Origin: Emiliania huxleyi CCMP1516
Lineage: Eukaryota
NCBI RefSeq assembly: GCF_000372725.1
Contig: NW_005201912.1
Span: forward strand, 62,001-126,000
Length of the DNA stretch: 64,000 bases
Direction of reading: 5' to 3'
Part shown: piece by piece, positions 4,101-51,694 of the stretch
Position numbering within the stretch: position 1 is the first letter of the stretch
Layout of the letters: every line of letters begins with the position of its first letter
The notes under the pieces: generated by a model
Told to the model about the DNA's origin: nothing
Databases searched by the model: none
What the model saw: the letters and a program-made list of their open reading frames with translations, nothing else
Translations under genes and position numbers: made by a program

Positions 4101-7100
4101 TCAGGGAACGGTCTGCGGAGACGCCGACCGCTCAGAGCCGACGCGGCCGTCGCCGTCCAAGTCGATCCCCGTCAGGTTTTCGGTCAGGTTGAGCGCGTCG
4201 CTGAGTAGGCCGCCCCTCCTTGGGCCACACAACGCGTCGATCTGGCCGAGCACCAGCCGCAGCGAGACCTCCGCGTGCGGGCCACCATGCAGCGGAGTCG
4301 CGATCGGGCGGTAGATGCCGGCGTCTCGCAGCGCAGCTGGCGTCGCCGCGATGATGTCGTCGAAAGTGGCGACGCCCACGTCGCCGTCGCGCCGCTCGTG
4401 CACCAGCACGAGCGGCCGGCCGCCCTCCAGCGCCTCGCGCACCTGCCCACGGCACAACGGCGTGAAGAGACGCCGTTCCCCTGGCGACCCCTGGTGTGCC
4501 TCTGTGCACCTCGCAGCCGAGCGCCTCCGCCTGGGCTCCCGGAGCAAAGGTGGAGCTGTTCAGGTAGAGCAAGAAAGCGCACGTGGAGCGCGCCTGCGCG
4601 GGGTCGTGTGCGCTGCTGCTCGAATCTCGGCTGCAATCTCAATATCGGTTGAACCCCGTCGGACATCTCGACCGAATCTCGACCAATCTCGTCTGAATCT
4701 CGGCTCCCGGGTGCGAGAGCCTGCGCGGGGTCGTCCGTGCTGCGCAGCCGCCCGTCGCTCGCCTGCTCACAGATGGAGGTGTGGAGAGACGCGGTTCACA
4801 CCCACAGCGATCCTCGAGGGTCGCGCCGGCTCGCCTCGCCGATGCTCTCTGCCACCTCAGCCGCGCCGGCGTTGCTGGCGGAGTAGTACACGTGAAACTC
4901 CTTCCGGGTGGCGAGCGGCGGCGGCGGCGAGCGGAGGAGGTCGCCCGGCAGGAAGATGGGCTGGTCTGCGCCGGCCGCCTTCCACGCGCGAAGCAGCTCG
5001 ACGATCAGCAGCCTCATCGAGCACATCTGGAAGGGGCGCAGCCGGTGCCACGTCACCAGCGGCGCCGCGAAGACATACTCGCGCAGCTCATCGGGGCACT
5101 CGGCGCGGTGGACCTGTTCACAGCTGGAGGTGTGAAGAGGCGCTGTTCACAGCTCGTCGGAGCACTCTCCACGGTGGGACGTCGAGCGGCACTCCGCCGT
5201 GCGACGGGTCCGTCTCCAGCAGCAGAATCAGCGGCTTCTTCCGCTCAACCTATCCACAAACCCTCTGTTCTCGGCGCTCCGCGCTCTTCTCAGCGCGAGC
5301 GGCCTCTCTGCCGAACCGCGGCGCGCAGCTCGCGCAAGCAGTTGCGGGAGCGCATGTAGTCGGAGGCGGGTGCACCTGTTCACAGCTAGAGGTGTGAAGA
5401 GACGCTGTTCACGGGAGGGAGCGCATGTAGTCGGAGGCGGGTGCGCCGTCGGCGACGGCGGTCGAGCCCGTCAGCAGCACGATCACGGCCTCCGAGTTGC
5501 CCACGTGCTCCTCCAGCCGCGCGGTGTCGTCCAAGTTGTCCACGTCCAAGAAGGGCGAGATGTTTTGTACGTAACTTGGGGACGCGGCGAGCACGTGTCA
5601 GGAGGACGTGTCTGCGGCCGTGTCAGCGGCCGGCGGTCGTGCCGAGGAGCGGCGGCGGTGCGGGCGTAGAGGCAGGGGTGCGGGCAGAGTGGAGGCGGCG
5701 GTGTTGACGGGCGTGCGGATGTGGAGACAGTGGTGGGGGAGGGCGGAGGAGGCGGTGGGTCGCACCGCTGCAGCTGCCCCTTGAGCGCCTTTGCCTGGTC
5801 CTGCCCGCTCGACCACACGTGGGAGAGGAAGACGTGGTACCTGTGCACCTGTTCACAGCTAGAGGAGTGAAGAGACGCTGTTCACGGGAGAGGGAGACGT
5901 GGTACCTGTGCACCGCGGTCAGTCTGTGACGCGCTGGGGCGTGGCCGAGCGAGAGGCAGCTGGTGAGCACCGCCCATCCGGCAGCCCCATAGCAGAGATG
6001 ACCCGCGCCTACACCCGGGTGATCGGGGGTAGATCTCGGGTGATCTGGGGTAGATCTCGGGTGATCTGGCAGTCGTCCGAAATGTCGGACCCCCCCATCA
6101 CGGCAGGGGCGCCGCGCCTACACGCGAGGGCACAGGCCGAGATCATATCTCCCCCACATCTCCCTCATATCTCGTCCTACACGCGAGGAGGCACAGGCCG
6201 AGATCCGCACGAGAGGCCGCCGAGAGGTCTAGCCAGCCGTCGCGGGGCGCCGCACCCTCGTGTTTCTAGGACGAGATATGAGGGAGATATGGAGGAGATA
6301 TGCTCTCGGTCTCAGCCATCGCGGGGCCGCACCTCGTGTGCCTTTGCCAGCTCCCAAGGCGGCGTGCCCCGCTTGGAGCGAGACATGAGCGCGAGGGTGA
6401 CGGAGCGGTGCAGCGACCCCTTCCTACAGCCTCTTCCCATCCCGGCTGATCTCGGCTGGTCCCTAACGGCGGGGCGGCGCAGCACCCTCTCCTCGGCCCA
6501 GCCGGCGGCTCCCAGCGTGCAAAGTCGCGCTCCGCGTCCCTGCAGCCGAGCGGTGCAGTCACGAGGCCGTCAGGGCTCGGAGGAGGCTCGGAGGGCAGCT
6601 CGAGCAGAGTCTGGGGGGGGGGGGCCGATTGCAGGCAAGTGCCGCTGCAGGCCTGATAATGCCCTTGAGATGCCTCCGCCGCCGCTGCAGCCGGAGGTAA
6701 CAGAGTCCGCCGCAGAGGCAGAGCGCAATGAGCCCCGACGCGAGCGCCGCGATGAGTGTAACCACCCCCCTGTTCACGCCTCCAGCCGTGAAGAGACGCC
6801 GAGTACCGCCGCGCGCAAGCAAGGGGGCAGCCCCGCACCGGTTTGAACTGGTTGGACTGGTCGCGTCCTGGCACAGGGCGCCGCTAAACCCCGGAAGGCA
6901 GTCGCAACCGCCGTCGAAGCGGCATTTGCCGTTGCCCGAGCAGTTCCCCTCGTTCAGGCAGTAGCGCAGCTTCCACGGCGGCGTTGGGAAGGAGACGTTC
7001 TCTCTCTCCTTTGCGTCGAAGACAACCTAGAGGAAAACGAGGCGTCAACGAGGGGGTGGTATGTCGGGCGATGGGCGGTGCTACAACACCTCGTAGTCAG

Positions 7101-9067
7101 CCTGCCCGGCCGCCGCCGCGCCGGGCGGGTACTGCACGACAGGGAAGTCCATCCCCTCCATCTGCCCGTCGGCGTTGAAGGAGATGTTGCTGGTGAAGAA
7201 CTCGACGAGCGACGTGCTGCGGAGCGCGCTCGCCACGGCGGCCGTCTCGAGCGAGCCCGCCCGCTCGATGGCGTCGCCCAAGGTGCAGAGCGCCTATCAT
7301 TGACGTGTCGTTGTCATCCTCACCACAATGCCGTTGTTGCTCGATGGCGTCGCCCAGCGTGCGGAGCGCCGCGAAGGTCCCCGCCCCGTCAGAGTCGACC
7401 TTGGCCGGGTACACTGTGCGGCCGCCGAACGCCTTCAAGTACTCCTCCTCGTATTTCGCGCTGTCCCAACCGGAGAAATTGCCAATGTCGCTCGGCATCG
7501 ACGCGACCCACGGCACCGCCTGCAGAGCCGGGGAGCGAGGGCTAGTGGGCTCCACGCGCCGGTGAGAGCAGTGTGAGCGGTGTGCGTGTGCGTGTGCGTG
7601 GTGTGCGTGTGCGAGAGAGAGAGAGGCTGCCTCGAGTGCGTACTCGCCCTGCCACCAGCCGCCCCTCATCTTGCGGACGTATTCGTCGTTGAGGATCGTG
7701 TTTGTCAGGAAAGTGGCGAGCGGCGAGTAGGCCTCCTCCTCCTCCTCCAGGCCGAGTCGCTCCAGCTCCTCCACCTACAGCCTCGACGCATCTCGCGTGA
7801 TCTCGCGCAATCTCCGAGGCCGAGCCGCCCCTCCTCCTCCTCCACCGCGACGATGCCGCCGGCCTCGTACGAGCAGACGAGGACGACGGTGGCGCGCTCG
7901 TCCCGCAGATGCGCCAGCGCCCTCCGCATCTCCTGCCTGTACGTCGATGTGTTGACGCTGCTCCACTTTGGAACCGTCGCGTTCGCTACGATGCCGGAGC
8001 CGGCCGCGTCCGCAGGAGCCGTCAGGATCCGCGCCTTGGCGTCCTCCCACTCTTCTTCGCTGCCGCAGACCCCCCGAAAGGCAGTGTCGTCCTCCTCGAC
8101 GTACCTGCGGGACACACGTCGCGGAAAGTTTCATGGAAAGGGCCGCGAGGCGTCGCCGCCTCCCTTCTCTGCGAACCCGACTCGGAGGGCGCCCAAGCAG
8201 GTCTCGGAAGGTTCGCCGGCGCGGCGCACGCACTCCTTCTGGCAGTCGCACTCCCCGCCAGCATCGCAGCCAGTGTCGCAGTCCTCGGCAGCCTTCAGCA
8301 GCGCCTCGAACTCGCGCCTGTACGACGATACCTCGGCTGTATCTCGGCTGCATCTCGGCTGCGTCCCGGCTGCGTCTCTGGCCAGAGCAACGCCTCATAC
8401 TGCTGCGGGGCAGCATCCCAAACACGCGCAGCCCGAGGCCATTCTCTTGCGCCAGCGCGGCGGCCGAAGAGTAGACGGCGGGATCAGATGACGCTGGAGC
8501 GATCATCAGCTTGCTGTCCAGCACCGCCTGCTTGCTCGCGTAGGTGGTCAGCCCCGAGCCATACGGGCCGAGCAGGAAGTCTGCCGACGCGAAACCGCCC
8601 GACTCCGGGTGCACGAGGCGCGAGGTGGCGTTGGCGACCTGCAGCTGGCTACTGCTGTCTCCGAGGAAGACGCAATGTACGCCGTAGACGTGCGTCGCGT
8701 TGACTTTGATCCCGCCGCGGGGCACCAGCATCCGCGAGAAGAGGTCGCAGCTCCTCTGCATCTTAAGCGAGCTCGTATAGAACTGGTCTTCGGGCTGAAG
8801 CGACGCTGGCGCGCCGATGGTGATTACGCCCCTCGTCCTCTCGTTCTTGCACAGCTGATCGATGTCGGTCTCGAAGGTCAGATGAGGCGTGCCCGCTGGC
8901 AGTGACGGCACCGCTGTTGTGACATTCGTCCAGCAATAGCTTGGGTCGCACTGATCGTCAGAGCGGCCGCGTGTGTTTTCCGTCACCACGACGAGCGGCA
9001 CGTCGTACTTCTCCACGCACTCCGTGATTGTTGCCGCCGCTGCCGCTGTCAGGATCGGCAGCGCCAT
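4101..9067 (-). CDS. Multi-exon receptor-like protein: periplasmic-binding type 1 (Venus flytrap) ectodomain, EGF-like domain, TM helix, TIR domain, second TIR-like domain
   Basis: FLLGPYGSGLTTYA...MIAPASSDPAVY...VFGMLP and LGDAIERAGSLETAAVASAL...ISFNADGQ (Liv/ANF-type PBP1). CSGNGKCRFDGGCDCLPGFSGALC (EGF). VVTLIAALASGLIALCLCGGLCYL-RLQRRRR (TM). RYHVFLSHVWSSGQDQAKALK...FLDVDNLDD...VIVLLT...YMRSRNCLRELRAAV (TIR). FHVYYS...FLLYLNSSTF...EVREAL...LVLVHE (TIR-like). Confidence 0.75.
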
Positions 9068-14879: not shown

Positions 14880-15285
14880 CGCCAGGTATTCAGGCTTGCG
14901 CTGCGGGCGCTTCAGGCTTGCGCTACGTCACATTCACCGTACCGGATGTGTTGTGCACACACGTCGGGCTGAGTGCAGCGTCCCGATGGCCTCAGTTCAC
15001 AGCCTTGTTATTGAGAAGAAATACGTCCCGAAAACAAGGTCTGTGTGCGCGAAGAGCCCCACACGTACAGCCATGGCACAGCCCCTCGCGACCCTCGAGT
15101 TAGAGCATCCGATTTCAATCAACAACATTGTACATTTTAAACATTTTGCACGCACTTCGAAGCGCTCGGCTTTCCATCTACATCTACTAATCGGCAACAA
15201 AATCTGCAATTAACACATCGCTGTTCTCGCATCGAGCCCGCTGTGTCACCCTGGCGACTTCCCATGCCGGGGAGCGGGGTTCGCC

Positions 15286-25226: not shown

Positions 25227-28200
25227 ATGGCGCTGCTTCGAACGGTCGAGACCGACCTGCGGAGCCTCTCGATGGAGGCGCGCCGCCGCTTCCCCGAGGT
25301 CAAGGAGGCTGCGGAGCGCGCGCTCCAGCGGCTGCGCACGGCGCAGGAGTCGCTGCGGCAGGATGCTCCGCTTGCTGAGCAGGCGGCGGCGGTCGCGACG
25401 TCGGAGGAGGTGCTCCTGCCCTTCACGCTCGCGCTGGCGTGCAAGTCGGAGGCTCTCCCTCTCTGTGCCCTCTCCGCCGTGCAGCGGATGATCTCGCACA
25501 GCGCCGTCGCGCCGGTCCATCTGCCCGCGATCGCGTCGCAGCTGATCGCGCGGGCGCAGATGCCGTCGGAGGACTCGATGCTGCTCAAGGTGCTTCAGAC
25601 GGTGCTGACGATCGCCTCCTCCCCGGCCCTCCTCCTTACCGACCTCCTCGTCTCCCAACTCCTCCTCCTCTGCCTCACGCTGCTCGGCTCTCGCTCAGTG
25701 ACCGTGAGGTGTGGAGAGCTCGCACAAACACTTCGCAGACACTTCGCAGAGAAAGAGACTGCGCGGACAGCCAGCGCGGACAGCGCGCGGGCAGCTCGCG
25801 GGCAGCTCGCGGGCAGCTCGCGAGACATTGCAATGTGTCCCGATGAGCCCGATCCGTGCCCCCGCCTTTCGCACCTCCCCGGCACCATCTCCTCCTCGCA
25901 TTCAATCTGAACGACGAATGACGTGAGGGGAAATGCGCACCTCCCAGGCACACGGCGTCCGCGACGGGGCAGCAGTTCGTCTCGCTCCTCCTCGACCTCG
26001 CATCTGCAGAGGCGGCCGCCGCCCAAAAGGATCCCCGCGCGCCGCCGCCCGCCGCCGCCGCGCCGTCCGCCGCCGCCTCGGCAGCGCGCGACCTATCGCG
26101 GCTGTCCGTCGCGGCACGGTGCGCGTACCTCGCGGTGGTGGACCTGTGCGACCTCGCGTCCGGCGAGCCGGCGCAGTGGCTCACCGGTCTCTCGTCGCCG
26201 GTGCCGACGGTGTTTGCGCTCGAGGTTGTGCAGCGAACGCTGGCCTCGCACGCGACGCTGTTCCTCGGCCAGCCCGACTTTCGTCACCTCCTGCACGAGC
26301 ACGTCTGCCCGCTCGCGCTCAAGTGCATGCAGCACACCGTGCAGCACCAGGCCGTGACCGACTGGGAGCACGCGCTGCGCGCCTGCCACCTCACCGCCAC
26401 CCTGCTGCTCAGCTACGCGCGCGCCGTCCGCACAGAGGCGGAGATTCTGCTCGTGACGCTTGGGAAGATGCTCGAGGCGGAAGGCACCCCCATCTGGCAG
26501 CGCGCGCTCGTGCTCGAGACCTTCCGCCTCCTCTCCTCGGACGCGCCGCTCCTCACCGCCATCTTCACCGCGTACGACCTCTCGCCCTCCTCCTCCAACG
26601 CGCTGGCCACCCTCGTCGGCGCCACAACCAAGCTGCTCACTTCGCCGCAAGTCGACTTTTTGGCGCACGCGGAGTTCATCGAGCCCCTCTTCCTGCGCCT
26701 CTCCCGCTCTGCCTCAAACTCGAAGGCCGCCACCTTCAACACCGCACTCTACTCGGAGGCGGACGGGTCTCACGTCACAAACGACTACGCCGCCGCTCTC
26801 GCCATCGAGTGCGTCCTCTCCTCCGCACCTCCCCACACCTCCCCACACCTACCCACACCTACCCACACCTCCCAAAACCTCCCCAAACCTCCCCACAGCT
26901 CCCCGCAACTCCCAACACTCCCCAAGATCTCCCACATCTCCCCACATCTCCCCACAGTCCCCCACACCTCCCACAACTTCCCCAAGGGGCGTCCTCTGCT
27001 CGGACCACTCCCTGCCTGCCCTCTCCGTGGCCGCGCTCCCCCCGTTCCGTCTGACGTTTCCGAGTGCGTCCAATGTCCCCCGGTGGCCCCCCCCACACTC
27101 TCTCTCGGGCGCGGCCCTTTGCCCATACCCACGGTGCCCGCCGGTCAAACACTTGGGGCCCCCCCCCTNNNNNNNNNNNNNNNNNNNNNNNNNNNNNNNN
27201 NNNNNNNNNNNNNNNNNNNNNNNNNNNNNNNNNNNNNNNNNNNNNNNNNNNNNNNNNNNNNNNNNNNNNNNNNNNNNNNNNNNNNNNNNNNNNNNNNNNN
27301 NNNNNNNNNNNNNNNNNNNNNNNNNNNNNNNNNNNNNNNNNNNNNNNNNNNNNNNNNNNNNNNNNNNNNNNNNNNNNNNNNNNNNNNNNNNNNNNNNNNN
27401 NNNNNNNNNNNNNNNNNNNNNNNNNNNNNNNNNNNNNNNNNNNNNGCACACCTCCACGCACCTGCTGCACCTCCACACACCTCCCCACACCTCCCCAGGA
27501 CTGCCCACACCTCCCCACACCTCCCCACACCTCCCCACACCTCCCCACACCTCCCCACACCTCCCCACACCGCCCCACACCGCCCCACACCTCCCCACAC
27601 CGCCCCACACCGCCCCACACCTCCCCGTACCTCCCCACACCTCCCCACACCTCCCCACACCTCCCCACACCTCCCCACACCTCCCCACACCTACCCACAC
27701 CTACCCACACCTCCCCACACCTCCCCACACCTCCCCACGCCTCCCCGCACCTCCCCACACCTCCCCACATCTCCCCACATCTCCCCACATCTCCCCACAT
27801 CTCCCCACACCTCCCCACACCTCCCCCAGGTGCGTCCTCTCGTTCGTCCACTCCGTCGTCGCCCTCTCGGAGCGCGCGGCCGCGCACGGCACGGCGAGCG
27901 GCGAGGAGGCGGCCAAAGGCGGCGGGGTGGAGCGCGCAAAGATCGTCATCGGGGGCGTGCACTTGTCGATGTCGGAGGCGGCGCGCGGCGAGATGCAGCT
28001 GGTGCGCTCCCTCGTCTCGACGTGTTGGGTCCCGCTCTGTACCTCCCTCGCGCTGGCGACGGCGCGCTTCTCTTCCGACGAGTCGCGTGACGTTCGTAGA
28101 CACTTCCGAGACACTTCCGAGACACCTCCGAGACGCTTCCTAGGCGCGCTTCTCTTCCGACGAGGCGGTGCAGGCGACCCTCAAGGCCTTCCAGGCCTTC

Positions 28201-31200
28201 ACGCACGCATGCGGCCGCCTCTCGATGCAGCAGCCGCGCGATGCGCTGCTGGCGGCGCTCTGCCGGTACGCGCTACCGCCGCGCGCGCGGCAGGAGCTGC
28301 AAGAGGCGTCGGCGCTCTCCTTCGCGCCGCCGGACGCGGCGTACGAGCCGCTGCCGCACACGTCCCTCTCCGCCAAGAACGTGCTCGCTCTCAAGGCCCT
28401 CTTCAACATCGCGCACTGCATGGGGTCGCTGCTCGGCTCGTCTTGGAACCTGGTCCTGCAGACCTTCGAGCAGCTCGACCGCATCATCCTCTCCTCCAAG
28501 CTCACCGCAGCCTCGCCGCAGTCCGCCGAGCGCGCGGCGGCGCTCGGCGGCGCCGACGCGGCGACGCAGGAGCTGGGCCTGCTGCACACGGCGCTGAGCA
28601 ACCTCCGTTCGCGTCTGTGGCCGTCTGACCCTGACCCTGACCCGAACCCTAACCAGCGCTAGGCGCTGAGCAACCTCTTCGCGTCTGTGACCGTCGAGCT
28701 CGACGACGAGGCGCTCGGCCACTTCCTGACCGCTCTCTCGACGCAGTGCTTCGCGTCGCTCGCCCACGAGGCAACCTCCAAGGAGAAGCTCGCCGCGCCC
28801 GGCTCGGGGGCGGGTGGGACGGCGCAGCGACTCTTCGCCCTCACGCGGTTCGTCGAGACGGTGCTGTGCAACCTGCACCGCGCGCCTGCCCTGTGGCCGC
28901 TCGTGACGCAGCTGCTGCTGCCCGTGGCGAACCACAAGGTGCCGCGCATCCGCGTCGTCGGGATCGAGTCCCTAGAAGCGGAATACGTGTTCGTGTCTCC
29001 CAGCTAGCGCCCGAGAGGGCCACGTATTCCGCTGTATTCACCCGTAGTCCGCTGTATCACTGCATTCCTATCCGTTGTATTCACGCGGTGCTCTGAAGAC
29101 GCTGCACAATACCGTATTCGCGCCCTGAGGTTGGCGTACTCAGCACGTAGGATCGAGTCACTCTCCAAGGTCGTTCTGAGCGTGCTGCAGTACGGGATGG
29201 CGCAGCGAGACGGCGACGCGGCCCCGCACGGGGGCGAGGCCGCCGCCGACGCGCCGGCGGCGGGAGGGCGCAGGGGGAGGCCCTTGTCTGCCGGCGCGGC
29301 GGGCGGGTGGGGGAGCCAGGGCGGCTGGGGCGGTGGGTGGGACAGGCACGTCCTTTCCCCGCTCGAGGAGCTGCAGCGCCGGTGCGCGCACCGCGAGACA
29401 CAGGAGCGCGTGCTGCAGTGTGTCCACCAGCTGCTCCGCTCGTGCGGCGCCGGGCTGGTCGAGGGCTGGCTGCTCATCCTCTCTATCTTGTGGCGCGCCG
29501 CCACCAAGCCCGCGCTGCTGCCGCTGCTGCCGCTCGCGATCCGCTCTGTCCAGCTCATCGCCTCCGACTTCCTGCCCTCCCTGCCGCCGCCGTGCCTGCT
29601 CGCGTACGTCGAGGTAGCGGCGGCGTACGGCAACCAGGCGGACCATCTCAACGCCTCGCTCACCGCCATCGGCCTGCAGTGGACCATCTCCGACTTTCTG
29701 CTCGAGTACGCCGCCGACGAGGACCCGCCCGGCGCCTCGTCCGCCGCGGAGCCGACCGACGAGGAGGAGGAGGACGAGGAGGACGCCTTCCCCGCGCCTA
29801 GCGGGCGCGCCTCCCCTCCGCCACCGGCCGCCGCCGCGTCGGCGGCGTCGGCGTCGGCGGCGGAGTCGGCAGCGGCAGCGGCAGCGGCAGCGGCAGCGGG
29901 AGCGGCGGCGGCGGCGGCTGCCGGCAGTGCGAGCGACGCGGCGGCTGCGGCCGACCGCGGCGGCGGCGGCTCACCCGCGGGTGGCGACGAGGCGGAGCTG
30001 GCTGGGTCTGCGCTCGCTCCTGCGCCGCGGTACGGCGAACTGCGCGTCGAGGAGCCGGTCGAGTCGCACGAGCTGTGGTGCGCGATCGCGCGCCAGCTGA
30101 GGCGGCTTGCCGCTGACGAGCGGACCGAGGTGCGGACCTGCTCGCTGCACACGCTCACCTCCATCCTCACGTCGCACGGCGCGCAGCTGTCCGGCTCGAC
30201 ATGGGACTACGCGCTCTTCCGCGCGCTGCTGCCGATGATGCGCGAGGTGTGCGAGGCCGCCGCTGCGGCGTGCGCGACGCAGCAGGTTGCAACGCCGCAG
30301 TCGGCAGGAGGAGCTCATAGTCGGTGAATGAAAGGTCCATTCGTTCATAGGTTGCCAAGCCGCTCGGCAAGGAGGGCGGCGTCCCCGTGCTGATGCTCCT
30401 CCACCACTCCCGCGACACCGCCTCCAAGCAGTGGGACGAGACGTGGGTGCTGCTACTGCACTCGTCGACGCGTCTCTTCCGCGCCTTCCTCCCCACGCTG
30501 ATGGCGCGGCCGCGCTTCTCCAAGGCGTGGGCGCGCCTGCTCGCCTTCTGCCGCACGTCGCTGCTCGCCGCCCGCCGCTCCGTCGAGGTTTCCAAGGCGG
30601 CGATCCACGCCCTGGTGCACGAGCTGCTCTGCTCCACCGTCGCCCTCAAGACCCCGCGCCGCGCCTCCTCCTCCCTCCTCGCCGCCGCCCGCTCCCCGCA
30701 GCGCGGCGGCGGCGAAGGCGGAGGTGGAGGCGGCGGAGGCTTTGGCGGCGGCGGCGGCCAGGGCGGCGCATCGAGCGGGGCGGCGGCGGGTGAGCCGGGC
30801 AGCCCTGCAGACCGAGCGCGGCCGAACGCGAGCGAGGCGGCGGCGACCCCGTGGGAGAGAGACGCTACGAGTGATTCTACCCAATGACGGCTTGGTTGAT
30901 GACTCAGGCGCCGGCGACACCTCACGAGAGGCTGCCGATCGCGCTCTGGACCTCCGTGTGGGGGCTCATCGAGTCCGCCTCCTCCGAGACGGCCTGCTGT
31001 GAGTAGCAATGAACAGTCTTGACCCCTGTCAACCATCTACAGGAGCGCCTCCTCCGAGATGGCGGCCGACGCAGAGGCGTACGACGCCAACGCCGAGGCG
31101 CCGCGCGCGACGACCGACCACTCTCCACGGGTGCTGTTTGGTGCTCCTCCCACCGCCCGGCTGCTCTTCACAGGTGCTGCACGCGATGCTCGACGCGCTG

Positions 31201-33600
31201 CACGAGCTGTACACGCAGGCGCGCGGCCGGTGAGCGAACGGATCGAGGGCTGAATGAGCCTCGACGCGCTGCCCGAACCTCACGCACGCGATCTGGCGCG
31301 CGACTGTCCTCGCTTTACCAGTGCCCGAGCTCGCGCCCGCAGGCGCGCGACCGGTTCGAGGAGGCGGATGTCCTTCGGCTGGTGACCCTCTCGGCGAGGC
31401 TCGCAGGTCATCTCCCGGCCATGCCCAGGACACGTCCACGACGCGTCCGAGACGCGTCCACAGGCGAGGCTCGCGGTCCCTCCCGGCGCGTCGAGTGGCT
31501 GGGACCCGTACCGCCCGCCCGCCAAGCCGTCGCCGCTGCAGCTCTCCGCGCTCAAGCTGGTGCAGGGGCTCCCCCCCTTCCCGCCCGCCGTCCGCGCCGA
31601 CAACCTGTGGCCCCTGCTGCTGCTGCACATCCTCAAGTTCGTCGCAATCGCGCCGGACGCCGCGGCGCCGCCGCCGGGGCAGCCGGCCGCCGCCGCGGCG
31701 GCGGCGGCCAAGCCGCGAGGAGTGCGGCACGTGGCGTGCTTCGCGGAGCACGCATACTCGCTGCTGCTGCAGCTGCTGACGAGCGGCGTGCCGCCGCTGG
31801 CCCAGCTGGAGGTTCTCGAGGACGCGTTGCAGGTCCTGCGGCTCGCACAAAGTGAGGACCCTCTCGGACCCTCTCGGACCATCTCGAGGACGTGCTGCAG
31901 GTCCTTCGCGCGATCCTCGAGCTCGCGCACTCGCCCGAGGTGCTGTGCTCCGCCCCCCCCCCCCCCCCTTCCCCCCTTCCCCTCCCCCGCATGAGGAGGA
32001 GGCGGCAGGAGAGCGCTGCTGTGCATCGGCACCCCACCTCTCGGCCGCACTCGCGCCCTCTCCACGGCAGGTGCTCTGCCCCGCGCTGCCAAAGGAGGTT
32101 GCAAGGACCTTCGTCGGCCTCACGCGCGCGGTGCTGCCAGCCCTCGCCCTCGCCTCCGCTGGTGAGACGCCGACCGCCGGCTCGGACGTGGCTACGCCCG
32201 CCGCGCACGACGAGATGATCCGAGCGATGTGGGCGCTGCTCTCGCCGCCGCCGCAGCGGGGTGGGGGGGCGGAGGCGGAGGCGGAGTACGCTGCGCGGGC
32301 GGGCGGGGGCAAGAGGACCCTCCTCCTGCCCACGGCGCCGGAGAAGGAAGGAGCGGGCGCCGCATAAGCTCTGCACACGTCTTCACACGCCGTCTGAGTG
32401 TGAATAGGCGCCCGGCGAGGAGGGGCTGGCGCGCGAGCTTGCGGTGCTGCAGGCGTGGCGAGATTAGCCGAGATCACCGGAGATGAGCGGCGGGGCAGCG
32501 TGGCGAGATCAGCCGAGATCAGCCGAGGTTGGCGGTGTTGCATGCGTGGCGGCGTGCCTGCCCTCCTTTCGGGAGGAGAGTCGTGTCCGTGTCCTGATCC
32601 CGCCTCCCGCCCGCTTGCCCGGGCAGGCTGCACGCGACGTGCTGCGCTCGCTGCCTCAGATGCGCGAAGGGGCGCGGGTCGAGCTGCTCGGCTTGTCGCA
32701 CTCCGTGCTCACCCTGCCCGCGAGCAGCGCGCTCAAGCGGGACGCTTGCTGGCGCGAGGCGCGCGCTCGCTGCCCCCCCCCCCCCCCCTCTCCCCTTGTG
32801 CCGGCGAGGGGGAAGCGGGACAAGAGACCACGCCTCCACCGGTTTCCCACCCACTTGCCCACCAATTCCAGGTTTTTAACCCACCACCCACCGGACGAGT
32901 GGCCACGCACCACTACCGCCCAGGCGCTCGACTCCCTCTGCGAGGCCTCCGCTGGGCTCGGGCCCCTCGAGGGCGAGCCGACCTCCGACAGAGGCGGCGA
33001 CCGAGGCGGGGGCGGTGGAGGCGGGGGCGGTGGAGGCGGGGGCGGCGGAGGCGGGGGCGGCGGAGGCGGCGGAGGCGGCGGGGCGGCTTCGGCGGGGCGA
33101 GCGTGCGGGCCGCACGGGTGGGAAGGCGGCGTGGAGGTGTCGAGGCTCGCGCTCCCGCTGCTGACCGACGCGGTGCAGGCGTCGCTGCGCGAGTGGTCGG
33201 CGGCCGCGCCTCCGCCGGCGCCGTCGAGCGAGGTGTCGGCCCGCGCGTCGCAGCTCTCTGCGATGCTCACGCGGCTGACCGACTTGCGGCTGCCGGTGGG
33301 GACGGCCCACCCGCCAGCCGCCGGCCAGGCCGCCGTGTCGCCGTCTGCGGCGCGGCGCCGCTCCGAGTGCGCTCACTTGGTGCCCCGCGCAGCGCCGGAG
33401 ATGCGGTGTGGGTCGGGTCGGGGGTCGCCTCACGGGTGCGTGGCTATGAGCAGGTTGCGCTCGCCCCGGACCTGATCAACGCCATCGGCAGGCCGACGAG
33501 CGAGGACGGCGGCGCACTCGCGGGGCGCGAGGTGCAGCGGCTGCAGGAGGCGATCCGCGAGGCGCTGCAGCTGGTCTTTGCATCCCTGCCAAAGCCGTGA
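25227..33600 (+). CDS. MON2: Protein MON2 homolog (DCB/HUS/HDS ARM-repeat Golgi-endosome trafficking scaffold), many introns, one N-gap inside an intron
   Basis: ETDLRSLSMEARRRFPEVKEAAERA; KNVLALKALFNIAHCMGSLLGSSWNLVLQTFEQLD; RSVQLIASDFLPSL; LNASLTAIGLQWTISDFL; HHSRDTASKQWDETWVL. Confidence 0.93.
26821..27827. repeat. Intronic (CTCCCCACAC)n 10-mer tandem repeat spanning an assembly gap
   Basis: Dozens of 10-nt units inside MON2 intron 26809-27829. Confidence 0.95.
28971..29151. mobile_element. 181-bp TIR element (MITE-like) with 8-bp TSD ATCGAGTC forming a MON2 intron
   Basis: ATCGAGTC at 28963-28970 and 29152-29159. Imperfect TIRs cctagaagcggaatacg / cgtactcagcacgtagg. Internal GTATTC repeats. 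Confidence 0.7.
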
Positions 33601-34150: not shown

Positions 34151-34386
34151 ACTTGTCAACACGACTCACGAGCAGGCGCTGGCGCCATCAACGTTCCTTT
34201 AATTCGTTCTCGAACACGTCAGCTCTACCCCTCTTCAAGCATACGGCTCTACCAGGTACAAACCGTACACCCCAAGACACACCAACCGTACAGAAGGCTG
34301 CGCACATCGCGCGTAGCCGTAGGTATCCACATTCCTAAAAGGGAGAAAACGAATTCCCGCACGCTCTCACTCATGAACTCGAGCTT

Positions 34387-37300
34387 TCACCGACGAAGCT
34401 GCACGACGCGCTCCTCGACGGTGCCGGGCGTGTACAGGTGCACAATCTTCGCGACGCGGGTCTGCCCTGGGCGGTGCACACGTCCCTCGAGCTGCGCCTG
34501 CAGCGCTGCGTCGAGCTGCGGCTCGAGCACGAAGCACGTGTTGGCAGCGGTCAGCGTGAGGCCGGCGGCGAAGTTGCCTGTCTCGAGCAGCAAACCGCAG
34601 CACGTCGGCTCGTCACGAAAGAGGGACATCGCCGCCTCGCCGTCCTTGGCCCACACGAAGAATGGCACAGCCTGCACGCGGTCGAGAGGGAACTCCTCCG
34701 CCTCCTCCTCACCATCGAGCAGCACGAACACGCGCTGGTCGACCCACTCTCGGCCCGCCTCGTCGCGCCACGGCTGCTCAGCGAGGCCCGTCACCGTGCC
34801 GCGGGCGCCGGCGGCGGTGCTGACAATGACGCGCTCGTCGACCTCGATTGCGCGGTGATCTGCCCACTGCGCGTGCAGCGCGTCCGCGACGCGCTCAAGC
34901 AGCAGCTTCGACTGAGAGAAGACAAGGAACTTGTCGCTGTCCTCCTGGTCGGCGATGAGCTCGACGAGCTTCTTGATCTTCGGGGCGTCCGCGAACTGAG
35001 ACGTCCAGTGGCCGGCCGCCGCGTCGAGGTGCGCCATGAAGGCGTGCGGCTCCATGCCGGGGAAGTTGACGAGCAAATCGTTCCACTCCTCGGTCGCGCG
35101 GGAGAGCGACATCGCCTCCGTCCTGGCATGCTGGTAGCCGAGGCGCCACCATCCGGTACCATCGCGCCGGTAGAGCGGTGTCAACTCGTCGATGTTGGAC
35201 CGCCGGTTCTGACCGCTCTCGTATAGCTGCCGGTTCCCGCCAAAGCTCGCGCTGAGGGGCTGCAAGCTGCGTGCGAACCACTGCTCAGCGCAGCCCTTCG
35301 AGTGGAACCGCTCCGTCGCAAAGTGCTGACGCGCCGCCGCGCCGTTCTGCAGCCGCTTGGGCCAGCGGCAACGCCAGATGGACGCGGATGCCGTTGGAAG
35401 CACCTGCAGACAGCCGTCGCACAGGCTGTCGGCTCGCTCGCCAGATGGCAGCGACTCCAGGCGAAGCCCAAAGGCCATGCGCGCGCACGAGAGGTTGCAG
35501 AAGTGCATCTCGTCCTCCGCGTGCTCTGCCATGCACAGCGGGCATCTCACGCACGACGGGTCGACCGCAAAGTGCCTGAGCCTCTCGAGGCACGGGCGGC
35601 AGAAGAGGGAGTGGCCGCACGGCAGTGCCGCCAGCTGGCTCTCCTGCAGCTCCTCGCAGCACACGGAGCATTGCAGCCCCTCGCCCACATCGTATTTCTC
35701 GCGGGCAGCATCGCCGATGCCGTCGAGCGAGCCCGGTCGAATGAGATCCGCCTCTGCGAGTGGCCGCCGCGGGAACTCCTTCGACAGGATGCGCACATGG
35801 TCGAAGCCATCTTCGCATTGAGCGGTGCCGGCGTACCGCCCAAGCATGCCCTCCCGCGCCCGCGCGTCGGCGATGAACGAGTCGCACATGCTCACACGGA
35901 ATCCCTCGAGCTCACACGGAGGCGGGCAGCTCTTGTCCAAAGCTGCCCAGGCGGCGTTGTCATCTAGCGCGCGCTCCGACGCCTCGTACGTGCCGCGGTC
36001 CACGAGCTCGCGCAGAAAACCAAGCTGCAGCCGGTTCCGGCAGCTGCTGTGGCGGCAAAAGAACTCCTCACCGCGCGCTTCGATGAAGAGGTCGCTGAGA
36101 CACCGCTTGCAGTACGAGTGGCAGCACCCGTTGACGATCACGCGCGCGCGAGTCGAAGTGGCGGCGGGCTGGCCGAAGTCCACGCGGCACATCGAGCACA
36201 CCTTGCCCTCATCGACGGCGCGCCGCTGCGCGTCAGACGAGAGGCCGCCGGTCACAGCGGCGAGTGTCACGAGGCGCGTGGGCACGAGCGAGCCGGCGGT
36301 GAGCCCGTCGGCCTTGCAAGTTTGAAGCATCGGCAACCGCGCAGCAACTTCGCCCGGCTCGACCGTGCACGCGTGCGAGCTCGCGAGCAGCAGCTCCTGC
36401 ACCCGCCCCTTGGGCAAGTCCGGGAAATCGCCGTGCGGCGCACCCAAGCCCACGCTGAGCTCGCGCCGTGCAAGGTGCTCGAGGCAGCGAGTCACGACCT
36501 CTCCGTGGCCGGCATGGCCGGTGCTCGAGCACTCGAACGGGACCGGCACGTACGCGTGCTCCTTGCGCGGCAGAGGGATGAGCAAATTGCCCGAGAGCGC
36601 AAAACGCTGCGCGTGCGAGTGCCGCATCATCACGGGCGAGAGGGCTGTGACCGCGCGACGCAGCGCCGCATCGCGCGTCTGCGTGTCACCAAGCGCGCGT
36701 TGCACTGCCGTCCACCAATCGGGGCGAGCGGCGTCGCCGCCAACGCCCAGAAAGGCGAGCTGCCCCGCGAGCGCCGCGAGGTTGCCGTCAATCGCCGTGC
36801 CGGACAGGACCCACCTGTAGCGCGCGCCGAGCTGGCGAAGCTGCTTGCCGATTTTCGACGAGAGTGTGCGCAAATGCTGCGCGCTCTCGTCGACGACGAG
36901 CCGGTGCCAGCGTTGCCGCTTCAGCCGCGAGTCGACGAAGAAGTTCTCGAAGGTGGTGAGCACGACGTCGGCCTCGACGGCAAGCTCAAACTGCTTCATC
37001 TTCTTGTTGTGCACGCACACGCTGCGCGCAGAGACCCGGCGAGTCATGCTGCGCGCGCTCTCATCAACGCGTGGACGCGGCATGCGGGGCGTGAGTGGCG
37101 CGCACCGCAGACGCTCGACATCGGGCTGCGCCTTGGTGAGCTCACGCCGCCACTGCTCGAGCAGCGCCTTCTTCATGACAACGAGAGTAGCGCGGCACTC
37201 GCCGCTCGCCACGCGCTGCGCGAGCTGCGCCTTGTCGTCCGAGAGGACGAGCGCGGCGATGATCTGAGTCTTGCCGAAGCCCATCTCGTCGACGAGCGCC

Positions 37301-37871
37301 CCCCCACGCGTCGCGCCCGCCTCCTTCCCACGAGCCCAGCCGAGCGTCTGCAGCTGCACGGGATAGAGCTGCAGCTCCATCTCCGCCGGCTGCTCGGCCG
37401 TCGGATGACCCGTCGACTCGAGTGCGCGGAAGATGCCAGCATAAGTGTAGGCCGCCTCTCCGACCAACTCAGGCGAGCACTGCAGCACCTCCTCCGGCTT
37501 CAACAGAACGGTGTCCTGTGCGTCAGCCGCTCCGCCTCCAGCCGCACCGGCGGCGGTGCCTGCCCTCACGGCCGCTGCCGCCGCGGTCGCCGCGCCCTCC
37601 TCCACCTGAGGCGCCTCCGCAGCTGCCGCCGCCGCCGCCTCCTCCTCCATCGCGATCGCCGCTGTCCCGGCGCCTGCAGCCGCCGTATTGGCCGCCGGCT
37701 CGCCCTCGCCGCCGCCTCCCTCCGCCTCGCCCTCGCCGCCGCCGCCGTCCGCCTCGCCCTCGCCGCCGCCGCCTCCCGCCTCGCCCTCGCCGCCGCCGCC
37801 GTCCGCCTCGCCCTCGCCGCCGCCGCCGTCCGCCTCGCCCTCGCCCTCGTCGCCGCCGCCATCCGCCTCGC
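34387..37871 (-). CDS. SNF2-family (Rad5/Rad16-like) helicase with two RING fingers between the lobes; 5' end runs into a gap, start uncertain
   Basis: GGALVDEMGFGKT, ATLVV, WHRLVVDESAQH, RWVLSGTAI, RING1 CSMC...CCHSYCKRC, RING2 CSVC...LPCGHSLFCRPC...CPLC, KFLVFSQ, AAGLTLTAAN...QLEGRVHRPGQTR...GTVEER. Confidence 0.9.
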
Positions 37872-40290: not shown

Positions 40291-41015
40291 AGGAGCGCTG
40301 CCTCTGCTCGGCACGTGTGTGTGCAAAGTGTTTTGTGTGTGAGGCGCGGTCAGACGGGCGTGGCAGCTTGTGTACAAGGTCTGTAGTACACGCCGTACGA
40401 AAAAGGCCGCCGCGACCCGCGCGTGTGGTGTGTGTGGACTGCACAGAGACTGTTTTTTCACAGAGACACGGCCCCCTTTCTCGGGGTCGGGCGCGTTGGC
40501 CTCTTTTGTAGGGAAGAATTTTGATACCCGTCAAGACGCCTGCTGGGGGCAGCTTCGTAACGAAGCCGTCTGCTCCCCCAGCAGGCACACACTAGACAGA
40601 TAGGAGGAGAAAGGGGACGGTGGTGGGTTTAGGGTTGCCTAACGTTAATTTGGGGCCTAACAGTTGCGCTATTGTTGGCTGAAATCCTCAACGTTGGTCA
40701 AGTGTTCTCCCCAGCCCAAGCTGTTACTGTTTGGTACTGTTGTTACTGTTGTTCAGCGGCCAGCAAGCGAAAAATGGCAAAAAAACCCGGGGAAAACCCT
40801 AAAATACCCGGGAATTTTCGGGGATTTTCGGGTATTACCCGCACTGGACACTACAGATCGTCGGGGGGCATTGGCCGGCCCTTCCTTAATGTTGTTCAGC
40901 CGGGCCTAACCTTAANNNNNNNNNNNNNNNNNNNNNNNNNNNNNNNNNNNNNNNNNNNNNNNNNNNNNNNNNNNNNNNNNNNNNNNNNNNNNNNNNNNNN
41001 NNNNNNNNNNNNNNN

Positions 41016-42277
41016 CGCGGAAGTAGAGCGTGCATCCGCGAAGCGTACGCCTGACTCGCGCGCTCTCGTTCCGACCTGGACGTCGAGCACGGCCGCGTAT
41101 GCACGGAGTAATCGTCATCTTCAAGCCGTTCATCGTCGGGTGATGGGTGAGGGTCCACGTGCCGAGAAAGGCGTCGGGGTCGGACTCCGACGCCTTGACC
41201 ACAGACTCATCGGCGGGGAAGGAGGCGGAGGCGACGCCCGGACGAGGCGGCGTCGGTGGCGGTGGCAATGGCGGCGGCGCACGGCCGGTTTTGCAGACGG
41301 CGGCAGCGACGAGCGTCAGCATATACACAAATGCAAACACCTGGCGACAAAAGGCGTCTCATATCCGCGACATTTTTTTTCTGCGATGCGTTCAAAGAAA
41401 AGTTCTTCTCAATAGCAAGGAGCTATGAAGCGCACACACAGCGGGGGGGGGGGGGGGTGATCGGGCTGCGGGCAGGAGAGCCCTTACCCCTTATACTACA
41501 CAAAATAAAGAGAACCGCGTTTTCCCGCTTGAAATAAAGAAAACACACTCCGGCCGGCCGGTGCAACAAGTATATGCCAGCCCGCGTCAGCGCCGCGCGC
41601 CGCAAGCCGCCGCCTCTGCGCCGCCTCCGTGCAAGCATTCGGAAGGCCGCCTGGGATGGCCAAGTGGGAGCGGTGCTGGCGTGGCTCGACGGCGGCGGGC
41701 GGGTCGACGAGACGTTCTCTAGGGCGCCAAGTGGGAGCGGATGGGCGAGAAAGAGAAAGAAAAGGAAAAAGAAAAGCAAGCCCCGCCGTGCAAAGCCAGC
41801 GCGGGAGGAGGCGCTCGCCCGTCCGCAACCCCGCCCGTTTGCATGCCCGGCCGAGCGAAGGCTGGCTCGGCCGCCTCCCGGCGCGGGCACGCTTCTACGG
41901 CGGCTACTGCTGCGCCGCTCGCGCTGCCGAAAAGGATCGAGGCGGCGGCGGCGGACGGCAAGGTGGGCGTGGTGCAGACGTGGCTCACCGGGGATGGGCG
42001 GGTTGATGCGACGTGCGTGCGTCGCGGTGTCAGTGGCTGTACGCTCCTGCTGATCGCCGCCGAACACGGTCACAAGCAGCTCGTTGAAGTGCTGCTGAAG
42101 CGCGGCGCGGAGGCGGACGCGCGAGACAGCGAAGGCAGTTTTTCGCTGATGGCCGCCGCCGCCAACGGCCACGAGCGCGTGGCCGAGATGCTGCTGCGGC
42201 ACGGCGCGGAGACCAACCTGCAGAGCAGCGAAGGAGGCACCGCTTCTGATGCTCGCCGCCCTCGGCAACCATCCCGC
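41016..42277. repeat. Local segmental duplication of 42621-43650 (secreted-protein fragment on minus strand plus ankyrin 5' region)
   Basis: Long near-identical blocks with indels. The ankyrin copy has an extra T near 42244 and ends at a gap. Confidence 0.85.
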
Positions 42278-43217
42278 NNNNNNNNNNNNNNNNNNNNNNN
42301 NNNNNNNNNNNNNNNNNNNNNNNNNNNNNNNNNNNNNNNNNNNNNNNNNNNNNNNNNNNNNNNNNNNNNNNNNNNNNTGGGTTGTTATGATCGCCTAATA
42401 TCGCCTAATGCCTGATATCGCCTCTAATATCGCGCAATATTGCGCAATATTGCGCAATATATCGCGCAATATCGCGCACCCTCGCGCACCCTCGCGCACC
42501 CCCTCGCCCCGGCGGCGGACCGCGGCCGCGGATTTCTTTGTTTTCGGCGGAGACCATCTAAAGCTGGCGGCGCAGCCGGCGCGCCTGCGGCGCGCCGTGG
42601 TTTCTAAATTTTCGCGACGTCGCGGAAGTAGAGCGTGCCGTCCGCGAAGCGTACGCCTGACTCGCGCGCTCTCGTTCCGACCTGGACGTCGAGCACGGCC
42701 GCGTATCCACGAGTAATCGTCATCCTCAAGCCGTTCATCGTCGGGTGATGGGTGAGGGTCCACGTGCCGAGAAAGGCGTCGTCGGAGTCCGACGCCATGA
42801 CCACAGACTCATTATACTACACAAAATAAAGAGAACCGCGTTTTCCCGCTTGAAATAAAGAAAACACACTCCGGCCGGCCGGTGCAACAAGTATGTGCCA
42901 GCCCGCGTCAGCGCCGCGCGCCGCAAGCCGCCGCCTCTGCGCCGCCTCCGTGCAAGCATTCGGAAGGCCGCCAGGGATGGCCAAGTGGGAGCGGTGCTGG
43001 CGTGGCTCGACGGCGGCGGGCGGGTCGACGAGACGTTCGTACGGAGCGGATGGGCCAGCAAAGAGCAAGAAAAAAGAAAAAGAAAAGCGGTGCGTGCAAT
43101 CGTGTGTTTGGCGTCATGTCGTGTGTGCCTTCGCTTGTTCCTTTTCACAACGAAGTCTGCTCAAAAAGAAAAGCAAACGACCGTCCGCAACCCCGCCCGT
43201 TTGCACCGCCCGTTTGC

Positions 43218-50538: not shown

Positions 50539-51694
50539 ATGCCACACGCTCGCCTCGCTGGCCTTCTTCTGCCGGCTTTGCTGCAGTCGGTTCGATGCCT
50601 CGCTCTCGAGCCTCCCGTCCGCCCCGCGCCACCGGCGTTGCGCCGGCCGCGTCCGCTTGCCATGAGCGCGAGTGGCGGCATTGGCGGTGGCGACAGCAGC
50701 AGTGACCCGGAGCGGTGGGCGAGCCTGAGCGGCTCCGATCTCTCGCGCGAGCTGGCGCGGCGCTCCACGCTCAGCTCTCGCGTGCGCACGTCTGCGCCCG
50801 TCCGCTTCTCGCTCGCGGCAGCTGCCGATGGCCGGCAATTTCTTGTCTCGTTTGCGCGCTTCTGGACGGGCCTCGGCGCGGCGGTGCCGGTGAACCGGCT
50901 CATGCTGGCCCTGATCGTCGCGGCCTACGGGCTGCAGGGCGTCTGCGGCCGCGCAATGCTCTACGCGGGCGCGCGGATGAACCAGGCCATTCTGGTGGGG
51001 CAGTGGCACCGGCTGATCACGCCGATCTGGCTCCACGGCTCGCTGATGCACCTCGCCTCCAACAGCTACTCCCTGTGGCACCTGGGCCCGCAGGCGGAGG
51101 CGCTCTTTGGCGCCGAGCGCTTCCTGCTCCTCTACGTGCTCTCGGGCGTCGGCGGGAGACCCGCCTCGGGGTCTGGGTTGTGCCGGGGGCCCTCCCCTGA
51201 ACCTTCTCGAGAACCTTCGCGTAGGCGGGAACCTGCTCGGGCTGTGGATGGGCGCGGCGAGGAGCATGTCGGTCGGCGCCTCTGGCGCGGTCTTTGGCCT
51301 GATGGGCGGCTTGGCCGGCCACGCACTTCGCACCTACGGCGTCGCGGGCGCGTCGCAGACCCTCTCGTCCGTCTCGCGCATCCTCCTCCTCAACCTCTTC
51401 ATCGGCAGCCGGCGCGGCTCGGGCATCGACAACCTCGGCCACGTCGGCGGCTTCCTCGCCGGCGGCGCGCTCGGCGTCCTGCTCGCGCGCGGCTCGCCCG
51501 GCGACCGCAGCGCGAGCCGAGGGCCGGTGTGGCGCGACGAGCCCCGCGACGAGCCGCGCGCGGACTCCACCTCCGCCGCCCTCGGCGCGGTGGCGGTGCG
51601 CGCGGCGACGGTGGCGGTGTGGGCGGCGCTCGCGCTGAGCACGCGCGATTTTGCGGCGATGACGGCCAACCTGCGCGCGCGCGGCTTGCGATGA
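50539..51694 (+). CDS. Rhomboid intramembrane serine protease, probable plastid targeting (intron 51152-51224, GC-AG)
   Basis: GQWHRLITPIWLHGSLMHLASN, SVGASGAVFG (GxS), IDNLGHVGGFLAG (catalytic H). Confidence 0.92.

What the first reader, a model, noticed from the sequence alone, without database searches (positions are those of the whole stretch)
26809..32408. Most MON2 introns start with a copy of the following exon, often giving GC donors
Examples: 28062-28143 (21 nt identical), 28591-28662 (~33 nt), 26809-27829 (12 nt), 30837-30907 and 30973-31042 (~20 nt, diverged). The same holds at 7294-7369 and 51152-51224 in other genes. Fillers differ (10-11-mer tandem repeats, cassette-like ends). 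This points to general intron birth by staggered-break fill-in or insertion with long duplications, and would explain frequent GC-AG introns as co-opted exonic G|GC sites.
Basis: partly seen in the sequence, partly recalled or inferred. Interest (0 to 1): 0.75.

Follow-up and report, generated by a model that had tools for sequence, protein, structure and literature searches.

The report
Intron-making elements with long target duplications
In a bloom-forming marine alga, most introns of one gene begin with a copy of the next exon (up to about 35 bases), likely because short repeated DNA elements make new introns by duplicating an unusually long stretch of the site they enter and borrowing its first bases as the splice signal.

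Summary
Confirmed and extended. The window is Emiliania huxleyi DNA. In a 17-intron MON2 model (one open frame; 4 introns joined directly in RNA contigs, 7 fitting by length), 12 of 17 intron starts resemble the next exon (permutation p=5e-5). Intron ends rarely resemble the previous exon (2 of 17). Across 28 window introns, the donor equals the next exon's first two bases in 21 (11 expected). Fillers are not all unique: a 37-nt element ends six introns of a neighbouring gene, each behind a 28-35-nt stretch, near-exact exon copy in three. Another haptophyte shows the same build with a different 42-43-nt element at unshared positions, and a 98%-identical allele precisely lacks one such intron. 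Best reading: Introner-like elements carry the acceptor, insert with a ~25-40-nt target duplication, and take the donor from it. The logic is known from dinoflagellates (4-8-nt duplications). A survey lists 37-nt E. huxleyi introners with duplication unknown or absent; I found no paper describing the long duplication. This scan noted a similar 15-nt case in another haptophyte. The enzyme and genome-wide share are untested.

The parts
25227..33600 (+). MON2 homolog, 18 exons, about 1870 codons
   Evidence: One open frame, 44-48% identical over nearly full length to P0002/P0003; Sec7-like HUS domain; P0001 names it
25709..25947 (+). Intron 1, GT donor, no exon copy; absent in close relative L013
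   Evidence: predicted from homology, no RNA laid
26809..27829 (+). Intron 2, GT, 12-nt exact copy, 10-mer array, assembly gap inside
28062..28143 (+). Intron 3, GC, 21-nt exact copy plus 11-mer repeat filler
   Evidence: RNA join 28060/28143
28591..28662 (+). Intron 4, GC, ~35-nt copy plus telomere-like 6-mer filler
   Evidence: RNA join 28589/28662
28962..29150 (+). Intron 5, GA donor matching the exon start, 9-nt exact copy
   Evidence: RNA join 28960/29150
30286..30350 (+). Intron 6, GT, worn ~26-nt copy plus 37-nt filler with a hairpin
   Evidence: RNA piece starts at 30349
30837..30907 (+). Intron 7, GC, worn ~23-nt copy
   Evidence: RNA length fit 218=218 for introns 7-11
30973..31042 (+). 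Intron 8, GT donor against GA exon start, ~21-nt copy
31098..31173 (+). Intron 9, GC donor against GT exon start, worn ~32-nt span
31219..31342 (+). Intron 10, GC, copy on both sides of the junction
   Evidence: 5' p=0.009, 3' p=0.030
31394..31463 (+). Intron 11, GC, 11-nt exact, ~26-nt span
31833..31900 (+). Intron 12, GT; the copy lies mainly at the 3' end (previous exon)
   Evidence: 3' p=0.003; RNA length fit 44=44 for introns 12-13
31940..32070 (+). Intron 13, GT, weak copy (p=0.050)
32335..32407 (+). Intron 14, GC, ~26-nt copy followed by a worn copy of the 37-nt element
   Evidence: element match p=0.002; RNA piece ends at 32333
32453..32626 (+). Intron 15, GC, no detectable copy
   Evidence: predicted from homology
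32759..32923 (+). Intron 16, GC, no significant copy; the only one whose retention keeps the frame
   Evidence: predicted from homology
33380..33453 (+). Intron 17, GT, no significant copy
   Evidence: RNA join 33378/33453
5376..5446 (-). Type example: 34-nt exon copy (30/34) plus 37-nt element at 5376-5412; whole 71 nt spliced; GC donor against GT exon start
   Evidence: RNA joint 5374/5446 in two runs
5114..5180 (-). 30-nt copy (24/30) plus element; 67 nt spliced
   Evidence: RNA joint 5109/5177
5849..5913 (-). 28-nt copy (27/28) plus element, lying inside the RNA-defined intron 5841-5970; the copy straddles an older acceptor
4763..4834 (-). Element-bearing intron, worn 35-nt 5' part (19/35, not significant alone)
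4443..4509 (-). Element-bearing intron, worn (20/29)
6770..6838 (-). Element-bearing intron, worn (20/32, p=0.076)
7294..7369 (-).
   Evidence: an RNA piece at 7339-7412 with 3 differences fits the spliced form (inference)
51152..51224 (+). Rhomboid gene intron, GC, worn ~35-nt span
   Evidence: Pfam Rhomboid positions 2-52 and 54-142 on the two exons; no RNA laid

Best explanation
Many introns of this alga begin with a copy of the next exon, likely because short repeated elements (about 37-45 nt) inserted into exons with a long target-site duplication of about 25-40 nt, the element supplying the acceptor and the first bases of the duplicate supplying the donor. Shown: the copy is anchored at the donor and one-sided; the whole copy plus element is spliced out; elements recur at unrelated sites; an empty allele exists in a related alga; positions are lineage-specific. 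Inferred: two offset nicks about 30 nt apart, copying-in of the element and fill-in of the gap. Only insertions in sense orientation with the duplicate starting at G|GT, G|GC or (rarely) G|GA are spliced precisely and survive. The intronic copy then decays, and the filler is often overgrown by 6-11-mer tandem repeats or re-duplicated. The most likely copying route is target-primed synthesis by a borrowed reverse transcriptase (about 0.4 within this model; long variable duplication, no terminal inverted repeats), ahead of templated break repair and an unusual DNA transposase. No enzyme was identified. That worn or repeat-filled MON2 introns arose the same way is an extrapolation.
For: 12 of 17 MON2 introns with 5' copy, 2 of 17 with 3' copy; 4 of 11 and 1 of 11 in a second RNA-joined gene. 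Donor equals exon start 21 of 28, permutation mean 11.2, p=8e-5; G at exon +1 in 27 of 28, at -1 in 25 of 28. 37-nt element in 6 places, all sense, all ending at an acceptor; scores 33-74 against shuffled maximum 29 (3 near-exact matches, 0 expected). In front of it lies a 28-35-nt part; elements are 79% alike between introns, the 5' parts 51%. RNA joints remove copy plus element (67 and 71 nt). RNA contigs hold the element with many other 25-39-nt flanks (tables 5c and 7). L008: a 42-43-nt element five times in 20 kb, 4 of 5 behind a clear 28-41-nt copy; 3 of 4 MON2 introns with 24-38-nt copies. L009 (66 mismatches in 3988 nt to L008, keeps other introns) lacks exactly the 81-nt intron L008:9843-9923 and holds one exon-type copy. 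0 of 17 positions shared with L008, 0 of 5 with L002. Mismatches of copy against exon fall at codon positions 1/2/3 as 5/8/2, as for a free copy.
Against: 12 of 28 window introns show no significant copy. Only 1 of 17 MON2 introns clearly holds the 37-nt element (p=0.002; three more at 0.014-0.03, not significant after 17 tests), so a mobile origin of most MON2 fillers is not shown. 7 of 28 donors differ from the exon start. Secondary tandem duplications inside existing introns do occur (L008:9283-9431 has two units, L009 one; L008:6314-6666 has repeated donor units), and 5849-5913 made no new intron. The empty allele could be a precise loss between the repeats. It rests on one metagenome contig. 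All four DNA sources of E. huxleyi seen (X4, X10, L007, L014/L015) keep the introns they cover. L002 has 2 of 4 with a copy, one of low complexity. No genome-wide test.
Confidence: 0.78

Rival explanations
1. Staggered double-strand breaks repaired by end joining capture whatever repeat is at hand (telomere-like 6-mers, 10-11-mer minisatellites, short abundant sequences). No self-propagating element is involved.
For: Most MON2 fillers differ from each other; several are simple repeats. Telomere-like fillers at 28591-28662 and L002:1607-1735. Daphnia new introns carry junction repeats (PMC4202315 passages).
Against: Two non-repetitive 37-43-nt fillers recur with the same ends at unrelated sites. 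Daphnia junction repeats are 4-12 bp, here up to 41 nt. It may still account for part of the introns.
Confidence: 0.12
2. The introns are old, and local tandem duplication or gene conversion later copied exon sequence into their 5' ends. No intron gain.
For: Secondary duplications within introns are seen (and 5849-5913). Two MON2 introns and 4594-4720 copy the previous exon.
Against: Empty allele L009; no shared positions among three haptophytes; the copy starts at the donor itself and is followed by a foreign element.
Confidence: 0.05
3. Pure tandem genomic duplication of an exon piece containing AG|GT (Rogers model): the intron is wholly made of duplicated exon.
For: 31833-31900 and 4594-4720 resemble flanking exon on both sides.
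Against: The 3' halves of most introns are foreign: 3 of 28 resemble the previous exon; shared elements.
Confidence: 0.03
4. The RNA joints are reverse-transcriptase template switches between direct repeats, or the repeats are assembly errors.
For: Joints at 28062 and 28591 can slide over 22 and 16 positions; such artefacts are known (PMC8240250, search listing only).
Against: Every intron ends in AG; removal gives one open frame matching relatives; retention breaks the frame in 16 of 17; many joints lie at repeats of only 1-6 exact bases; independent DNA runs and contigs hold the same introns.
Confidence: 0.02

Closest known systems
Introner-like elements of Symbiodinium and Polarella glacialis classes 4/5 and 6/8/10 (bioRxiv 10.1101/2020.10.14.339549; Results and Discussion read whole)
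   Same: Element carries the 3' splice site; the 5' end of the target duplication (GH...) is the donor; GT, GC and GA donors; GH at the start of the next exon; phase-0 bias (13 of 17 MON2 introns).
   Different: Duplication 4 or 8 nt and fixed there, about 24-41 nt and variable here; inverted repeats there (Symbiodinium), none at the ends here; here nearly half of the intron is locus-specific.
E. huxleyi CCMP1516 Introner families in Gozashti et al. 2022 (PMC9860276, supplementary rows seen; preprint passages)
   Same: 653 elements are listed; three families have average length 37 nt (308, 138 and 30 copies), the length of the element found here, which itself starts GT and ends AG.
   Different: Duplication is entered as '?' or 'N'. 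RNA joints here remove 67-72 nt, starting about 30 nt upstream of the element. That these families are the same element is my inference; their sequences were not seen. The search needed similarity within 10 intronic bases of both ends, which correctly bounded introns of this kind would fail.
Daphnia pulex new introns from staggered breaks (PMC4202315 passages)
   Same: Direct repeat of adjacent exon sequence at the far end of a new intron; presence/absence alleles.
   Different: Repeats 4-12 bp, fillers mostly of unknown unique origin; here longer repeats and filler families.
Non-LTR retrotransposons with long duplications (R9, 126 bp; Dualen, median 900 bp; PMC9977147 passages) and Replitrons (PMC10288648 passages)
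   Same: Variable-length duplication; Replitrons have short direct terminal repeats, as the 37-nt element has (8 nt, seen in the sequence), and occur in haptophytes.
   Different: Those are kilobase coding elements not described as making introns in the passages seen; no autonomous partner was found or sought here.
GC-AG majority in E. huxleyi (PMC4028052 passages)
   Same: 56-65% GC, 35-40% GT, up to 4% GA donors; window 13 GC, 14 GT, 1 GA of 28.
   Different: That paper ascribes it to high genomic GC content and, in the passages seen, does not mention copies of the next exon.

Membership tests
Introner (intron-generating transposable element) | Similar sequence in introns at unrelated sites | tested here: met
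   6 copies in window, 5 in L008; 79% and 85% alike between introns
Introner (intron-generating transposable element) | Insertion is removed precisely by splicing | tested here: met
   RNA joints; open frame
Introner (intron-generating transposable element) | Empty site in an allele or close relative | tested here: met
   L009 against L008, one case, other species; none seen in E. huxleyi
Introner (operational definition of Gozashti et al.) | Similarity reaching within 10 intronic bases of both intron ends | tested here: not met
   First 28-41 nt are locus-specific, 47-51% alike between introns (criterion)
Introner (intron-generating transposable element) | Autonomous mobilising element | not testable with these tools
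   No genome held
MITE / DDE-transposon introners | Terminal inverted repeats | tested here: not met
   Ends do not pair; fold z 0.17 and -1.24 for the window element, -0.68 and 0.25 for the L008 element
MITE / DDE-transposon introners | Short fixed duplication (3-8 nt) | tested here: not met
   24-41 nt
Target-primed retroelements (non-LTR, Penelope-like) | Variable-length target duplication | tested here: met
   28-41 nt within two families
Target-primed retroelements (non-LTR, Penelope-like) | 3' tail, 5' truncation, related reverse transcriptase | not tested
   Elements look fixed in length (37; 42-43 nt), which does not suggest truncation; no RT search possible without the genome
Rogers tandem genomic duplication | Intron made wholly of flanking exon sequence, 3' part copying the previous exon | tested here: not met
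   3 of 28 with 3' similarity
Daphnia-type staggered-break introns | 4-12-bp junction repeat with unique filler | tested here: inconclusive
   Not met for element-bearing introns; cannot be excluded for repeat-filled MON2 introns

The most novel reading that the evidence does not exclude
Long-duplication insertion is the main source of introns across haptophytes. It sets their ~70-nt size and GC-AG majority, and the inserted piece is the acceptor end of an existing intron RNA, copied into exons by target-primed reverse transcription: a self-feeding route of intron birth that needs no transposon ends and that current introner searches miss.
Probability: 0.2. Interest if true: 0.92.

Novelty: new variant of a known kind. 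Interest (0 to 1): 0.72.

Why it matters
Where new introns come from is a long-standing question. Here each intron keeps a record of its own birth: the copy can be compared with the exon to rank intron ages genome-wide without outgroups. The finding offers a testable cause for the GC-AG majority in E. huxleyi, so far put down to GC content. It suggests that catalogued 37-nt introners of this alga are only the inner part of ~70-nt introns, and that introner surveys undercount this type. It also explains gene-model errors: P0001 reads into such copies. A 25-40-nt duplication points to an insertion chemistry other than DDE transposases.

Tried and rejected
No whole genome is held, so no genome-wide count. 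MON2 relatives in viral contigs: 20 pattern matches, none confirmed. The window element in viral and genome collections: 0 and 0. The L008 element: 1 viral contig that ends 12 nt after the acceptor, 0 in genome contigs; a shorter pattern gave 7 loci, of which I read one new (L034, a chance match in coding sequence), one repeated L033 and five were not read. Presence/absence in E. huxleyi: not seen in DNA runs X4, X10 or contigs L007, L014, L015; contigs show presence only. Joint tables were swamped by repeats; joins were read from table 8. First MON2 models had off-by-one borders, fixed. L013 was mistranslated and rechecked; L008:12080 was off by one and counted as no clear copy. Of 32 loci, only L002, L006-L011 and L013-L015 were read or compared closely; L001, L003-L006 show no introns and may be transcripts, so they were not used as empty sites. 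About a dozen further predicted window introns (gene at 120-1196, rest of the gene at 4100-9070, gene at 15200-16260) were not scored; four picked for their copies are kept apart from the counts. Hairpin as a defining trait of fillers: 1 of 7 notable (z -2.46); rejected. Read et al. 2013 is not held; its 10-11-mer intron repeats are recalled only.
Full report
Source. The large MON2 exon matches P0001, labelled EMIHUDRAFT_223134 of Emiliania huxleyi CCMP1516, at 100% over 73% of the query, and carries a Mon2/Sec7 HUS domain. No whole genome is held.

Gene model. A 17-intron model (25227-33600) gives one open frame of about 1870 codons, 44% and 48% identical over nearly full length to two other haptophyte MON2 proteins. 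RNA contigs join four introns directly (28060/28143, 28589/28662, 28960/29150, 33378/33453). The other six rest on homology, some with a contig edge at the border. Retention would break the frame in 16 of 17.

The observation. Scored against same-phase coding positions with the same first two bases, 12 of 17 intron starts resemble the next exon at p<=0.05, 9 at p<=0.01; Fisher 4e-12; permutation 168 against 36.5, p=5e-5. Intron ends resemble the previous exon in 2 of 17, Fisher 0.26. In the minus-strand gene at about 4100-9070, 11 introns defined from RNA joints (borders; three joints carry allele differences) give 4 of 11 and 1 of 11. Over the 28 introns, ungapped identity is 27, 22, 19, 20, 19 of 28 at positions +1 to +5, 18 of 28 at +10 and +11, and at background (about 8) beyond about +27. 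On the other side only -1 (25) and -2 (15) stand out. So the repeat normally starts at the G before the donor. The donor equals the first two exon bases in 21 of 28, against 11.2 by permutation, p=8e-5. This includes the one GA donor. Of G|G(C/T/A) sites in the MON2 coding sequence 62% are GC, 17% GT, 21% GA. Published donors are 56-65% GC, 35-40% GT, up to 4% GA (PMC4028052 passages). GC is used about as often as it is on offer, GT more and GA far less, as expected for borrowing plus selection (inference).

The fillers. Six introns of the neighbouring gene end in one 37-nt element, all in sense and all flush with the acceptor. Each has 28-35 nt in front, matching the next exon at 30/34, 27/28, 24/30, 20/29, 20/32 and 19/35; the three best-kept elements have the three best-kept copies. 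RNA removes copy plus element, not the element alone. RNA contigs show the element beside many other flanks, so it is dispersed. MON2 intron 32335-32407 holds a worn copy (p=0.002); the other 16 do not clearly. One copy (5849-5913) sits inside intron 5841-5970, with its duplicate straddling the older acceptor; it made no new intron. The element has 8-nt direct repeats at its ends and no terminal pairing.

Other haptophytes. The metagenome scan gave 32 loci. L008 (46% identical protein; 'Chrysochromulina-like' is my recollection of its repeats, from no call) has four MON2 introns, three starting with 33/33, 23/24 and 36/38-nt copies. A different 42-43-nt element occurs five times in its 20 kb, four times behind a clear copy of 28-41 nt. 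L009 differs from L008 at 66 of 3988 positions, keeps the end of intron 1 and introns 2 and 3, and lacks exactly intron 4 (81 nt). It holds a single exon-type copy; the join lies before the first mismatch, which argues against a collapse in the long identical stretch. L002 has four introns at yet other positions, one with a 14-nt copy, GC donor and telomere-like filler. No position is shared: 0 of 17 with L008, 0 of 5 with L002. L013, close to E. huxleyi, reads through the site of intron 1.

Mechanism. The anatomy is exon - copy - element - exon, the copy supplying the donor and the element the acceptor. That is an insertion with a target duplication of about 25-40 nt. The copy decays freely (mismatches 5/8/2 by codon position in the six clearest ungapped copies). 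Steps shown: one-sided copy, element families, precise splicing, empty allele, unshared positions. Steps inferred: offset nicks, direction of the L008/L009 difference, same origin for worn and repeat-filled introns, and the enzyme. Long variable duplications without inverted repeats favour target-primed copying over a DDE transposase; fixed element length speaks somewhat against ordinary truncated retroelements. Against generality: 12 of 28 introns show no copy, and secondary duplications inside introns occur.

What is known. Dinoflagellate introner classes use the same logic with 4- or 8-nt duplications (10.1101/2020.10.14.339549, Results read whole). Gozashti et al. 2022 list 653 introners in CCMP1516, three families averaging 37 nt, duplication '?' or 'N' (PMC9860276 supplement rows; the file was cut when stored and family sequences were not seen), and a Chrysochromulina family with a 4-bp duplication and the opposite arrangement (preprint passages). 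Daphnia junction repeats are 4-12 bp. Rogers and Bendich report 4-30-bp repeats near borders of 213 introns (PMC11782384, abstract only). Passages of PMC12130899, PMC11282704, PMC4580454, PMC8379373 and PMC8557442 did not mention this pattern. Ten searches listed no paper on long duplications at haptophyte introns; subscription papers, including the genome paper, and bioRxiv supplements could not be seen. This scan noted a 15-nt case in another haptophyte before (e1-2577349), unchecked by me except for the paper it pointed to.

Verdict. Real, well above chance, present in at least two distant haptophytes. A new variant of introner-type intron gain, marked by a duplication three to ten times longer than in described families. 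Interest 0.72.

Noticed in passing
window 4100-9070 (-): Intron-rich gene with receptor-like, EGF-like, transmembrane and TIR-like stretches (labels recalled by eye; two exons gave no Pfam hit). RNA contigs of two runs differ from it enough to be paralogs or distant alleles.
   Followed up: partly
window 5841-5970 (-): The older part of this intron (5906-5970, 65 nt) may itself be a worn copy plus element (p=0.02), so the same element may have hit the same site twice.
   Followed up: partly
L002:1904-2016: The frame needs a TC donor with AG acceptor (or a GT one base upstream): possible shifted-register donor, or an assembly error.
   Followed up: partly
L008:9283-9431 and 6314-6666: Introns with two or three tandem units that include the donor and exon end; L009, L010 and L011 have fewer units.
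   Followed up: partly
L008:10117-10179: In-frame 63-nt tandem duplication inside the MON2 coding sequence.
   Followed up: no
window 30973-31042: Copy and exon differ at a serine codon of the two different codon families; the intronic form supplies the GT donor.
   Followed up: no
window MON2 introns: Phases are 13 phase 0, 4 phase 2, none phase 1, although 26% of G|G(A/C/T) sites are phase 1.
   Followed up: partly
P0004, P0006 C-termini: These database proteins read into introns; the P0004 read-through begins like a worn copy of the next exon (seen at protein level only).
   Followed up: no
window 34200-37870 (-): Long intronless SNF2-type helicase with RING-like fingers (label by eye), flanked by a short sequence also found near 40480-40580.
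   Followed up: no
window 41000-45130 and 54760-57900: Ankyrin-repeat and U-box-like genes in repeated blocks with assembly gaps; possibly a mobile or expanding family.
   Followed up: no
window 53460-53860: Two interstitial telomere-type arrays.
   Followed up: no
window 60390-62380: Inverted, repeated blocks of a repeat-rich sequence, foldback-like.
   Followed up: no
L008:13614-13996: Intron of a ribosomal protein L11-like gene without any exon copy, a candidate old intron for contrast (by eye).
   Followed up: no
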